A DNA stretch of 35,118 nucleotides from a virus (taxonomy: Duplodnaviria; Heunggongvirae; Uroviricota; Caudoviricetes), in the IMG/VR virus record IMGVR_UViG_2529293069_000022. One strand, 5' to 3'. Within the stretch, counting starts at the first letter, position 1; each line of letters opens with the position of its first letter. A program made the position numbers. Positions 9,001 to 12,000 of this stretch are shown in pieces.

Positions 9001-12000
9001 GCACAATTTGTTATGTGATCGTGCTGATCGGATACGCAATATTAAGGTACACCCCCACATATCAAACCTCATTGTCAATAATGGTTACAGGGATGTTAGT
9101 TGGTATGGGATGGTGGATACAGTGCATTACTTCTGCAGCCAATACTCGCAGATCACATACCCTGAACATGATCATTAACACGCGAACCAGCCCGGAATAC
9201 CAGAAACAATTAAGAAACAGCACCGCTTTCTATCGAGGTATGCGCTATGTACCACAAGAACTTTCAGAATGGCGATGCAACCCTGATAAAGACGAATATA
9301 AGAATATGAAAGTACCGGAAGAATATCGCGACGCAATTAATGGGCTTCTATATATTCTTAACTACTTTGAGTTTCTTGCCCAAGGGATCAAATTCAAAGA
9401 TTTAGATGACGGGTTACTAAAAGAATGTTTCTCAAGCTTCCTAAGAGGCATCGAGAGGCGAGGGTTTCACATGATCTTAGAGTCGCAAAAGCAAGATCCA
9501 GCAGCATTTGAAGGAATTATTTATCTTTCTAAAAAATGGAATGGTTCATCATTTGTAGAAACTCACCGATCAAACCCAAATACTGTTGAACTTGGTATCC
9601 CTTATCCGTCAAACGAAATTGTTGAGAAAATGGTGAAGGGCATCCCCATCCTTGAGGAAGAACCAGCGCCAGAGTTACATCTTGCCTCCGAAACAGAGAC
9701 TCAGTAATGACACAAGAGGGATATCAATATGCACGTAAAATGCACTTAGCCAGTATCAAAACTTAATAACTAAATATATTCAATGAGTTATGCTATTTTC
9801 GGACACGGGTTCAACTCCCGCCAGCTCCACCACTTTTTAGTTGTTTGAAGTACAATGAAGTCTACTAAGCCCGCACAGCACAAGCTCTGCGGGCTTTTTT
9901 ACGTCTATTGTCGTCCAGTGAGAATTGCTGAGAACTACGAGTTATGGCACCCTGAATGGGACCCACTAAGAAGGGTCCAAAAACCGAGGGTCCCAAAATG
10001 GCAAAAATCGCTAAGAAGCTCACTGACACTGAAATCAAAAGCACCAAGCCAGCCGACAAAGAAATCAACTTGTTTGACGGAGATGGTTTGATACTACGAA
10101 TCGCTCCCCTCTCGAAAGGAGGAAAGAAGAATTGGTATTTCAGGTATGCAGTGCCAGTGAGTAAAAAAAGAACCAAAATGAGCCTTGGGACCTATCCTCA
10201 CCTTACACTGGCAAGAGCCAGAGCCTTACGTGATGAATATCTTTCCTTTCTGGCAAATGGTGTTGATCCACAAATCCATAACAACGATAAGGCGAAGGCA
10301 TTAAAGAGTGCTACTGAGCACACTCTCCAAGCCGTAGCGCGGAAATGGTTAGATGAGAAGGTAAAGACATCAGGTATCTCACAAGACCATGCAGCAGACA
10401 TCTGGCGCAGCTTAGAGAGAAATGTCTTTCCTGGTCTGGGTAATGTCCCTATCAATGAGATCCGGCCTAAGCTCTTAAAACAACACCTTGATCCTATTAA
10501 GCAACGAGGCGTATTGGAAACTCTACGCCGTATCATTTCACGTCTGAATGAAATCTTCAGGTGGGCAGCTACTGAAGAACTTATTGAGTTCAACCCGGCT
10601 GACAACCTTGGTCAAAGATTCAGTAAACCAAAAAAGCAAAATATGCCTGCCCTTCCCCCAAGCGAATTGCCAAGGTTTATGGAATCTTTGACGAATGCGT
10701 CAATCCGGTTGGAAACACGTATGCTAATTGAATGGCAATTGTTGACATGGGTTCGTCCGGGTGAAGCCGTTCGCGCAAGATGGTCTGATATTGATACAAC
10801 CAACAGCATTTGGAACATTCCTGCTGATTTCATGAAAATGAAAAAGCCTCACAAAGTTCCTTTGAGTAAAGAAGCTTTGCGCATCCTTGAATTAATGAAA
10901 TCAATAAGTGGGCATAGAGAATGGGTTTTCCCCAGCATTAAAGCGCCTCTTAATCATATGCATGAACAAACAGCCAACGCAGCTATCATCCGAATGGGGT
11001 TCGGAGGCGAGCTTGTAGCTCACGGTATGCGTTCTATTGCGCGAACAGCGGCAGAGGAGTCTGGTAAATTCAGAGCTGAAGTTCTTGAGGCAGCGCTTGC
11101 CCACTCGAAAAAAGATGAAATTATCGCAGCATACAATCGTGCAGAATATCTGATAGAGCGACAGAGTTTGATGCAATGGTGGAGTGATTACGTTCAAGCT
11201 CAAAGATCAAATGCTCTGGTAGCCTAAGTATCAGAATAGCTAATATAATCCTGAAGGTAAAGAAAATGGAAACCCTATTCAAAGTTTTTGAAAAATTTAG
11301 TTCCAGACCACTTTTTTTTATTTTTTTCGGACTCTCACTTTGTGAATTTTTTCAGAAACAATCTGTTCTGATGAATCCATCAGCAGATAACATCGCGAAA
11401 TTATTCGCAGCCATGATATTAGTTGTTTTTTTTACTTGGGGATTTGAATGGCTAATCTTTAAATTCAATGTAAACCTTGAACCTCATGATCAAGGCGATA
11501 TTGGACCAACAATTGGAACGGCTGCTTTAGCTGTATACTTAGTTTATGCCTTTCATTTTCTCAGTGAAAATCCTGAAGCATTAAATTTAAAGTTATTAAC
11601 TAACTCTGGTTTTATATACAGCACAACTCTATTATTATTCTCATTAGAAAGTATGAAGCTTAGAAGACTTAAACAAAAGTAAACAACATCATTGCGAGAT
11701 AAATACAAAAGAGGTATGGCGGTAAATCACCATACCTAAAACATAATAATTTTGGTAGTATCGGTGATACATAATCCACACAAATATTGGAGCGATACTG
11801 AGACGCTATAACCTGATATCTTTCTCCATAACCAATTCTAAGTTCAGATTTAAGATGCGTTTTTTTTCTTTCCCTTTTTCTTTTGGGGTTTATCGTGATG
11901 TGAATAATATATCTTTGGTTTCAGATTAAATCCTTCAACAACTTCCTTCCAAGTTTGAACCGCTAATAAAAATTGAATAGAATTGATGTCAATTAATTTT

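What the first reader, a model, noticed from the sequence alone, without database searches (positions are those of the whole stretch)
9797..9832. Partial ssrA 3' end marks a tandem-element junction at the tmRNA site
Only the last roughly 36 nt of tmRNA (T-arm plus CCA) are present, flanked on the left by prophage-side DNA and on the right by a terminator and a P4/CP4-57-type integrase. This is what an attR looks like when a newer element (here the lambdoid prophage) has inserted into ssrA upstream of a resident ssrA island. It implies the intact ssrA lies beyond the window start and that the lambdoid phage, despite its lambda-like Red module, uses a non-lambda integrase targeting ssrA.
Basis: partly seen in the sequence, partly recalled or inferred. 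Interest (0 to 1): 0.55.

Follow-up and report, generated by a model that had tools for sequence, protein, structure and literature searches.

The report
Prophage–island junction at the tmRNA gene
The 36-base piece of the tmRNA gene is real and marks the seam between a lambda-like prophage and an older genomic island that both sit at E. coli's tmRNA gene, an arrangement that is already well documented.

Summary
Both the observation and the interpretation hold. Window 9797-9832 matches the last 36 nt of E. coli ssrA at 35 of 36 positions, and no other part of ssrA is in the window. The window is 100% identical to E. coli O157:H- 493/89 over the stretches compared. In that genome the intact smpB-ssrA lies 51,990 bp upstream, followed by dinI and a lambdoid prophage. 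The prophage ends with xis, int (7107-8291) and a DUF4760 gene, directly left of the fragment. To the right are an ssrA-type terminator, a P4/CP4-57-type integrase (48% identical to K-12 IntA) and a 24.7-kb island. The island ends at a decayed ssrA remnant (34536-34545) just before ypjA. Seven O55:H7-type relatives without the prophage carry the same island (at least 99.8% identical) joined directly to intact ssrA.

Two refinements. First, the fragment is a hybrid. Bases 9797-9805, including the mismatch A9805, come from the phage attP, and only 9806-9832 is the shared core. Second, the layout alone cannot show which element arrived first; that rests on comparison with other genomes.

Tandem elements at ssrA, and lambdoid prophages at ssrA next to an intA remnant, are already published (Williams 2003; CP-1639, AJ304858). 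The finding is correct but ordinary.

The parts
1..9796 (+). Distal end of the lambdoid prophage: early-left operon (cIII, kil, gam, bet, exo and others), xis, int and a cargo gene. The rest of the prophage lies upstream of the window.
   Evidence: Rfam lambda cIII thermoregulator match at 2056-2114. CB9615 annotation lists CIII, Kil, Gam, Bet and lambda exonuclease. The prophage continues to dinI and ssrA in 493/89 and CB9615.
6943..7152 (+). Putative excisionase of the prophage. It overlaps the start of int.
   Evidence: The same-position 69-aa ORF is annotated as excisionase in strains C311 and E423. No Pfam match here, so this rests on annotation only.
7107..8291 (+). Prophage tyrosine integrase of a non-lambda, non-P4 family. 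It is the enzyme inferred to target ssrA.
   Evidence: Pfam Arm-DNA-bind_2 plus Phage_integrase. 95.6% identical to the integrase of phage PhiR12_1, whose record ends in the same ssrA core. 31% identical to lambda Int over 162 residues. No meaningful similarity to IntA.
8784..9707 (+). DUF4760 membrane protein gene, carried as phage cargo between int and attP.
   Evidence: Pfam DUF4760. No PADLOC match. Other phages with the same integrase family carry different genes in this slot.
9729..9745 (+). Candidate arm-type integrase binding site (ATGCACGTAAAATGCAC) in the phage P arm, 60 nt before the core.
   Evidence: Occurs once in the 35-kb window. A 15/17 copy is the only match at up to 3 mismatches in the 49-kb locus L001, 92 nt after ssrA in the P' arm, in the same orientation. 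Present in both arms of PhiR12_1 and conserved in C311, E423 and UTAK-6. The binding function is inferred.
9797..9805 (+). Phage-borne ssrA-like extension (TTTCGGACA) left of the crossover. It carries A9805 where ssrA has G.
   Evidence: The intact ssrA in 493/89, CB9615 and prophage-free DEC5B has G here. All six attR fragments next to this integrase family have A, and they diverge from ssrA further to the left.
9806..9832 (+). Shared att core, equal to ssrA nt 337-363 (T-stem, T-loop, acceptor 3' strand, CCA). It is at once the attR core of the prophage and the attL core of the island.
   Evidence: Invariant in all aligned attL and attR sequences and identical to the intact gene.
9867..9900 (+). 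Intrinsic terminator that served ssrA before the prophage arrived. It is homologous to the ssrA terminator of K-12/CP4-57.
   Evidence: Fold of -22.6 kcal/mol, z = -3.4. Terminator scan hit. Aligns with the K-12 terminator downstream of ssrA. In prophage-free strains it directly follows intact ssrA.
9998..11227 (+). Integrase of the resident island, P4/CP4-57 type.
   Evidence: Pfam Arm-DNA-bind_3, Phage_int_M and Phage_integrase. 48% identical to K-12 IntA over 408 residues, E = 4e-139. Start codon taken from the RefSeq annotation; an upstream ATG at 9956 is also open.
9833..34535 (+). Resident 24.7-kb ssrA island. It carries int, a DUF6119 gene, HxsABCD, a remnant of a second intA-like gene, a Lamassu-like LmuA/LmuB pair, a relaxase and tandem tyrosine recombinases.
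   Evidence: CB9615 annotation. PADLOC matches. The whole island is present at 99.8% identity or more in only 9 of 5426 genomes, 7 of which lack the prophage.
34536..34545 (+). Decayed ssrA 3' remnant (CGCCAGCCCA) at the right end of the island and of the whole array. Conserved chromosome (ypjA side) follows it.
   Evidence: Homology to K-12 starts exactly here, at the position K-12 annotates as psaA. K-12 reads CGCCAGC-CCACCA and the window reads CGCCAGCCCA.

Best explanation
Window 9797-9836 is a hybrid recombination site at the seam of two integrative elements that sit in tandem at the tmRNA gene of E. coli.

The full order is: smpB, intact ssrA, lambdoid prophage (52 kb), ssrA fragment, P4-type island (24.7 kb), decayed ssrA remnant, ypjA.

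The island's own copy of the ssrA 3' end and terminator once completed the gene. The phage carries an attP made of an imperfect ssrA-like stretch (TTTCGGACA), a perfect 27-bp copy of the ssrA 3' end, and arm-type sites on both sides. Its Arm-DNA-bind_2-type tyrosine integrase recombined that attP with ssrA somewhere within 9806-9832. I infer the crossover was in or near the T-loop, whose flanking CGGG/CCCG stem halves form the usual dyad.

This gave ssrA a new phage-supplied 3' end and terminator. It left the displaced end joined to the phage P arm as a non-functional fragment.

The fragment is therefore both the attR of the prophage and the attL of the island. It is a substrate for excision, not an RNA gene.

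Shown: the sequence identity, the layout in the source genome, the single-occupancy relatives, the families of both integrases, and the phage origin of bases 9797-9805. Inferred: the exact crossover point, the function of the arm sites, whether either element is still active, and that the phage arrived second.
For: - Fragment identity and uniqueness.
- Intact ssrA followed by prophage DNA, 51,990 bp upstream in 493/89 and 54,721 bp upstream in CB9615.
- The constructed sequence 'ssrA + window 9833-10500' is found uninterrupted at 100.0% identity in DEC5B and 99.9% in eight further genomes, seven of them labelled O55:H7. It is found at 80% coverage or more in 968 of 5426 genomes. The phage-arm/island-arm junction occurs in only 79 genomes.
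- The same island at 99.8% identity or more is present both with and without the prophage.
- The G in single-occupancy ssrA against the A in every attR fragment of this integrase family shows that the bases left of 9806 came from the phage.
- A 17-nt motif is found once in each att arm and is shared with phage PhiR12_1, whose integrase is 95.6% identical.
- Integrase families.
- Published precedents: the CP-1639 record has ssrA, dinI, a lambdoid prophage, then a 'remnant integrative element' with intA. ssrA is listed as a known Stx-phage site (PMC8065619). Tandem arrays at tmRNA genes are described in PMC7192596, citing Williams 2003.
Against: - No excised circle, empty-site read or integration assay is available, so activity of either integrase is unproven.
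- No free phage genome with this exact left arm (DUF4760 side) was found in the phage collection. The attP was reconstructed from attL and attR.
- The island's right-end repeat shares only 7 contiguous bases with the core, so the island boundary rests mainly on homology to K-12.
- The order of arrival cannot be read from the layout, and presence or absence of the prophage could also reflect excision.
Confidence: 0.9

Rival explanations
1. Same tandem array, opposite history. The phage integrated first into an unoccupied ssrA. The P4-type island later integrated into the core retained in the phage's attR. The prophage-free relatives then lost the phage by precise excision.
For: Integration restores a core at both ends of an element, and a second element can use either one (PMC7192596). 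The final structure would be identical. Precise excision would regenerate exactly the ssrA-island junction seen.
Against: - P4-type integrases of this kind lie directly next to intact ssrA in 968 genomes from many lineages, against 79 with the tandem junction.
- Among the nine genomes that carry this exact island, seven lack the prophage.
- No genome in the sampled ranking showed this phage arm next to an unoccupied chromosomal flank. That listing was a sample, not a full list.
- The phage-borne A9805 weakens the T-stem dyad that the island's integrase would have had to use.
Confidence: 0.08
2. The fragment is the stump of a duplicated or deleted ssrA, left by an unrelated deletion or IS event rather than by site-specific recombination.
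For: IS-mediated deletions do remodel this locus. In typical O157:H7 an IS30-linked deletion fuses prophage and island remnants. In CP-1639, IS629 copies interrupt the equivalent region.
Against: - The left boundary falls at the same base in six independent prophages whose arm sequences differ.
- It is matched by a reciprocal junction at intact ssrA that carries the partner arm motif.
- No IS lies beside it.
Confidence: 0.01
3. The fragment plus terminator is transcribed as a small RNA of its own, like Salmonella IsrM, which Rfam matches here.
For: Rfam IsrM (RF02763) aligns to 9823-9900 with E = 7e-15.
Against: - The score is 56.6 bits against a gathering score of 376.
- Only the first ~20 and last ~56 model positions align, and 253 internal positions are missing.
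- No sigma-70-like promoter was found in 9600-10100.
- The match is explained by shared ancestry of ssrA-end and terminator sequences.
Confidence: 0.01

Closest known systems
CP-1639 locus of E. coli O111:H- 1639/77 (AJ304858; Creuzburg et al. 2005, cited in PMC8065619)
   Same: The order is smpB, ssrA, dinI, lambdoid prophage, then a 'remnant integrative element' carrying intA. The ssrA-proximal phage arm is 97.3% identical to the one paired with this window.
   Different: CP-1639 carries stx1 and is broken up by IS629. Its int-side end and the seam are replaced by IS sequences. Only one copy of the core (the gene itself) was found in bases 1-50,000 of the 50,625-bp record that I scanned. The window keeps the seam intact.
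CP4-57 cryptic prophage of E. coli K-12 (IntA, psaA)
   Same: A P4-type integrase lies directly after ssrA, with a homologous ssrA terminator. A decayed ssrA remnant sits at the same chromosomal position before ypjA.
   Different: The integrase is only 48% identical and the cargo is entirely different. The remnant is shorter (CGCCAGCCCA against CGCCAGC-CCACCA). In K-12 the island touches the functional gene; here a prophage lies between them.
Sp17 / O-island 108 of typical E. coli O157:H7 (listed as Oi108 in PMC10107115, Table 1, after Williams 2003)
   Same: The ssrA-proximal end is the same (dinI, espM2, espW). The distal island genes are the same, from the BamE-domain gene to the tyrosine recombinases.
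   Different: In typical O157:H7 everything from the phage early region through int, DUF4760, the ssrA fragment, the island integrase, Hxs, the Lamassu-like genes and the relaxase is missing, next to an IS30 remnant. The window shows the undeleted state.
Escherichia phage PhiR12_1 (PV340549)
   Same: Its integrase is 95.6% identical. The record ends carry the same ssrA core, the same A before CGGG, and the same ATGCACGTAAAATGCAC motif in both arms.
   Different: The arms are otherwise only about 79% identical, and the genes between int and attP differ (no DUF4760).
Phage lambda Int/Xis/attP system
   Same: It works the same way: a tyrosine integrase with an N-terminal arm-binding domain, an overlapping xis-int gene pair, and arm sites flanking a short core. 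The neighbouring Red/cIII module is lambda-like.
   Different: The arm domain belongs to a different Pfam family (PF12167, not PF09003). Identity to lambda Int is 31% over 162 residues. The target is ssrA rather than the gal-bio attB.

Membership tests
Tandem array of integrative elements at a tRNA/tmRNA gene (Williams 2003; PMC7192596) | A partial 3' copy of the target gene, in the same orientation as the gene, between two elements | tested here: met
   Window 9797-9832, + strand, matches ssrA nt 328-363 at 35 of 36 positions.
Tandem array of integrative elements at a tRNA/tmRNA gene (Williams 2003; PMC7192596) | An intact target gene at the far end of the proximal element | tested here: met
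   ssrA lies 51,990 bp upstream in 493/89 and 54,721 bp upstream in CB9615, followed by phage DNA.
Tandem array of integrative elements at a tRNA/tmRNA gene (Williams 2003; PMC7192596) | Each unit has its own integrase gene | tested here: met
   Window 7107-8291 (Arm-DNA-bind_2 type) and 9998-11227 (P4 type). They are unrelated to each other.
Tandem array of integrative elements at a tRNA/tmRNA gene (Williams 2003; PMC7192596) | Reference genomes in which one unit is absent and the flanks are joined precisely | tested here: met
   The ssrA-island junction is uninterrupted at 99.9-100% identity in nine genomes, eight labelled O55:H7. Seven of them carry the full island.
Tandem array of integrative elements at a tRNA/tmRNA gene (Williams 2003; PMC7192596) | Demonstrated excision or integration (circular attP junction, empty attB) | not testable with these tools
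   This needs reads or PCR from induced cultures.
P4 / CP4-57-type integrases (island integrase) | Domain order Arm-DNA-bind_3 (DUF4102), central domain, catalytic domain | tested here: met
   PF13356, PF22022 and PF00589, all above the Pfam cut-offs.
P4 / CP4-57-type integrases (island integrase) | Full-length similarity to IntA of CP4-57 | tested here: met
   48% identity over 408 of 409 residues, E = 4e-139.
P4 / CP4-57-type integrases (island integrase) | The gene lies directly 3' of the target-gene core | tested here: met
   The start codon is 166 nt after the CCA end. In prophage-free genomes the gene lies directly after ssrA.
Lambda Int family (prophage integrase) | Lambda-type arm-binding domain (PF09003) | tested here: not met
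   The window integrase has PF12167. Lambda Int has PF09003.
Lambda Int family (prophage integrase) | Close sequence similarity to lambda Int | tested here: not met
   31% identity over 162 residues only.
Functional tmRNA gene (Rfam RF00023) | Reaches the family gathering score, with the tRNA-like 5' end and the tag reading frame | tested here: not met
   33 bits against a gathering score of 47, 5'-truncated, with only the 3' ~39 nt aligned. ARAGORN finds none.
IsrM sRNA (Rfam RF02763) | Reaches the family gathering score over the whole model | tested here: not met
   56.6 bits against a gathering score of 376, with 253 internal positions missing.

The most novel reading that the evidence does not exclude
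The prophage may shield the tmRNA gene from the island. In K-12, excision of CP4-57 swaps the good ssrA 3' end for the decayed copy at the island's far end, which inactivates tmRNA and switches ribosome rescue to ArfA (PMC10107115). Here the island's far-end copy is even more decayed (CGCCAGCCCA). In the prophage-free O55:H7 relatives, island excision should therefore also disable tmRNA.

With the prophage in between, island excision would damage only the non-functional fragment at 9806-9832 and leave the gene intact. The defect would reach ssrA only if the prophage excised afterwards. The phage would thus have uncoupled, or made two-step, an excision-driven rescue switch.
Probability: 0.2. 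Interest if true: 0.35.

Novelty: already known. Interest (0 to 1): 0.15.

Why it matters
The practical value is for annotation. The fragment sets the boundary between two mobile elements to the base. That separates a 52-kb effector-carrying prophage from a 24.7-kb defence-gene island that automated tools might merge into one element. It also shows that this strain keeps the undeleted form of the Sp17/OI-108 region of typical O157:H7.

It gives a clean natural example of two unrelated integrase families using the same 27 bp of ssrA. It also lets the phage attP be reconstructed: the core, a conserved A next to the core, and a 17-nt arm motif. None of this changes current understanding of integration at tmRNA genes.

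Tried and rejected
- I looked for a third full copy of the core in the window and found none. The island's right end was located by homology to the K-12 psaA/ypjA region instead.
- I searched the phage collection with a reconstructed attP. Only the dinI-side arm has close relatives, and no record covers 80% or more, so no free phage with this exact DUF4760-side arm is available.
- I tried to read Williams 2003 by DOI and by PMC id, but it is not held. I cite it through papers that cite it.
- A literature search for 'CB9615' plus 'ssrA' found nothing.
- I tried to define arm-type sites for the P4-type integrase from GGGACC/GGTCCAAA-like repeats. The motif is too loose: it gives 18 hits across the window, so I dropped it as evidence.
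- I considered that the window might be a free phage with attP upstream of the 9998 integrase. I rejected this because the source genome shows chromosomal context on both sides.
- I considered IsrM and rejected it.
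Full report
**1.

The window reads ...GCTATTTTCGGACACGGGTTCAACTCCCGCCAGCTCCACCACTTTTTAG... around 9797-9832. I aligned the 363-nt ssrA of a near-identical genome to the whole window. This gave one significant match: ssrA nt 328-363 plus four following bases against 9797-9836, 39 of 40 identical, E = 4.5e-15. All other matches were chance-level words of 12 nt or less, apart from a weak 20-nt match at 9726-9745 to the phage arm downstream of ssrA, which is taken up in section 4. The 26-mer from the T-arm to CCA occurs once in the window and in none of 100 shuffles.

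No whole tmRNA gene is present. ARAGORN finds none and Rfam at gathering threshold finds none. A permissive Rfam scan returns a 5'-truncated tmRNA match of 33 bits, below the gathering score of 47. Only the last ~39 nt align, and the A at 9805 is marked as breaking a T-stem pair.

The right flank has a strong hairpin with a T-run at 9867-9900. It is followed by an integrase with the P4-type domain order that is 48% identical to K-12 IntA. The left flank has a second, unrelated integrase and a DUF4760 gene at the end of a lambda-like early operon.

**2. Where the window comes from, and the full locus**

Window 6900-11300 and 9833-34560 are 100% identical to E. coli O157:H7 strain 493/89 (NZ_CP038412.1) and 99.8-99.9% identical to O55:H7 CB9615.

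In 493/89 the order is: recN, bamE, ratA, smpB, ssrA (intact), dinI, espM2, espW, tail, head, lysis, Q, replication and immunity genes. These run on into the window's Red module, xis and int. The CCA end of the gene and the CCA end of the fragment are 51,990 bp apart. In CB9615 the distance is 54,721 bp.

The intact gene ends ...GGAATTTCGGACGCGGGTTCAACTCCCGCCAGCTCCACCA and is followed by CTTTAAGAAGGACT..., which is phage DNA.

To the right of the fragment the island runs to 34535. From 34536 the window is 97% identical to the K-12 sequence that begins at psaA, the decayed ssrA copy at the right end of CP4-57, and continues into ypjA. K-12 reads CGCCAGC-CCACCA there, and the window reads CGCCAGCCCA.

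**3. Genomes with only one of the two elements**

I built the junction that should exist without the prophage, ssrA followed by window 9833-10500, and searched 5426 complete E. coli genomes. It is present uninterrupted at 100.0% identity in O55:H7 DEC5B. It is present at 99.9% in eight further genomes: the O55:H7 strains DEC5A, DEC5D, DEC5E, RM12579, TB182A and USDA5905, plus 2013C-4465 and FDAARGOS_946, whose serotype the records do not state. It is present at 80% coverage or more in 968 genomes.

The complete 24.7-kb island is rare. It occurs at 99.8% identity or more in nine genomes: 493/89, CB9615 and seven of the prophage-free genomes above. The phage-arm/island-arm seam occurs in 79 genomes.

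So the same island exists with and without the prophage in one lineage, and islands of this integrase type usually touch ssrA directly.

**4. The fragment is a hybrid**

In the single-occupancy genomes the base equivalent to 9805 is G, as needed for the T-stem. The DEC5B match of 100.0% was to a query carrying G.

I compared this window with the attR fragments of five other prophages whose integrases lie in the same position. Those of AL.H8 and PhiR12_1 were confirmed to be of the same family by Pfam, and that of PhiR12_1 also by 95.6% identity. The five are C311, E423, UTAK-6, AL.H8 and phage PhiR12_1. In all six attR fragments, including the window's, the base is A. The bases further left drift away from ssrA in a phage-specific way: ATTTTCGGACA, ATTTTCTGACA, TTGCTCGGGCA, ATATTCGGACA and TTTTCGGATA, against ssrA AATTTCGGACG. 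From CGGGTTC to CCA every sequence is identical. After CCA each follows its own right-hand neighbour.

Bases 9797-9805 therefore came in with the phage. Strand exchange took place within 9806-9832.

A 17-nt motif, ATGCACGTAAAATGCAC, lies 60 nt left of the core and occurs nowhere else in the window. A 15/17 copy is the only match at up to 3 mismatches in 49 kb of prophage DNA. It lies 92 nt right of the intact gene, in the same orientation. PhiR12_1 has the motif in both arms. I read these as arm-type integrase sites, which is an inference.

**5. The two integrases**

The island enzyme meets every sequence test for the P4/CP4-57 type.

The prophage enzyme has an Arm-DNA-bind_2 domain. It aligns with lambda Int only over its central region (31% of 162 residues) and shows no real similarity to IntA. 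Its closest phage relative is PhiR12_1 at 95.6% identity. The next relatives in the sampled ranking are about 32% or lower.

Modular mixing of this kind is normal for lambdoid phages, which I state from established knowledge.

**6. Order of arrival**

The layout alone does not decide which element came first. Integration leaves a usable core at both ends, so a second element can enter at either end (PMC7192596). Precise excision of the phage would also recreate the single-occupancy state.

The comparative counts in section 3 favour 'island first, phage second', as does the weakened dyad that A9805 would present to the island's integrase. I put that order at roughly 0.9 against 0.1.

**7. Relation to what is known**

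ssrA is a listed integration site for lambdoid Stx phages (PMC8065619). The CP-1639 GenBank record already shows ssrA, dinI, a lambdoid prophage and then a 'remnant integrative element' with intA. Its ssrA-side arm is 97.3% identical to the one here.

Tandem arrays at the tmRNA gene were analysed by Williams (2003), as cited.

Typical O157:H7 carries the same two ends, but the middle is deleted next to an IS30 remnant. The deleted stretch includes the phage early genes, int, DUF4760, the fragment, the island integrase, Hxs, the Lamassu-like genes and the relaxase. The window therefore shows the undeleted form of the Sp17/OI-108 region.

This is a correct reading of a known kind of structure in publicly annotated genomes.

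**8. A possible consequence**

In K-12, excision of CP4-57 replaces the ssrA 3' end with the decayed far-end copy and inactivates tmRNA (PMC10107115). In this window the island's partner site for excision is the fragment, not the gene. Island loss should therefore leave tmRNA intact, unlike in the prophage-free relatives. This follows from the sequence, but it depends on the island being able to excise, which is untested.

**Verdict**

Novelty is 'already known' and interest is low.

Noticed in passing
window 1-34535, compared with L013 (NZ_CP101522.1) 20001-40040: In typical O157:H7 the same locus runs from ssrA through dinI, espM2 and espW to a degraded prophage. It then jumps, at an IS30 remnant, straight to the BamE-domain gene that sits at window 25602-25976. 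The seam, both integrases, Hxs, the Lamassu-like genes and the relaxase are all deleted. The window preserves the undeleted state of the Sp17/OI-108 region.
   Followed up: partly
window 9823-9900: Rfam IsrM sRNA (RF02763) matches only with its two ends, an ssrA-3'-like start and the terminator. The score is 56.6 bits against a gathering score of 376, with 253 internal positions absent. This suggests the Salmonella IsrM gene itself lies at an old ssrA-fragment seam. No IsrM is present here.
   Followed up: partly
window 8784-9707: A 307-aa DUF4760 protein gene occupies the slot between the phage integrase and attP. Its N-terminal half looks hydrophobic by eye, so it may be a membrane protein. 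It has no PADLOC match. Phages with the same integrase family carry unrelated small genes in this slot (PhiR12_1, AL.H8), so it behaves as a variable cargo position.
   Followed up: partly
window 17613-21768: This is a Lamassu-like pair annotated as an 'ABC-three component system' in CB9615: LmuA-like at 17613-18809 and LmuB-like AAA ATPase. The ATPase is split into two ORFs (19448-20302 and 20479-21768) by a frameshift near 20300 in the window. It is a single 773-aa gene in CB9615.
   Followed up: partly
window 17202-17351: This is a C-terminal remnant of a second intA-like integrase gene (68.7% DNA identity to K-12 intA), lying between the Hxs cluster and the Lamassu-like genes. No ssrA fragment lies next to it. 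The 'resident island' may itself be two fused elements.
   Followed up: no
window 13550-16921 (- strand): This is a His-Xaa-Ser radical-SAM cluster (hxsA, C, B, D). In CB9615 hxsB is a single gene and hxsC is flagged as frameshifted. In the window the hxsB region appears as two ORFs (15266-15940 and 15906-16643).
   Followed up: no
window 28650-32804 (- strand): Two adjacent tyrosine recombinase genes (30278-31603 and 31593-32804) are followed by a 543-aa gene annotated as hypothetical or DNA-binding. The layout resembles a 'recombinase in trio' element inside the island.
   Followed up: no
window 9958-9996 and 34341-34473: GGGACC/GGTCC(A)AAA repeats lie just upstream of the island integrase start, and GAACCAAA/AGACCAAT repeats lie near the island's right end. 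K-12 CP4-57 has similar GGGCC/GGACC repeats at both of its ends. These may be arm sites of the P4-type integrase, but the motif is too loose to test statistically (18 hits across the window).
   Followed up: partly
L009 (NZ_CP082349.1, strain AL.H8) 3384-6843: A different prophage (yfdP-yfdS-type early genes) with an integrase of the same domain family produced the same kind of seam next to a truncated K-12-type intA. Its fragment is identical over 35 nt, including the A. This shows independent recurrence of the tandem arrangement.
   Followed up: partly
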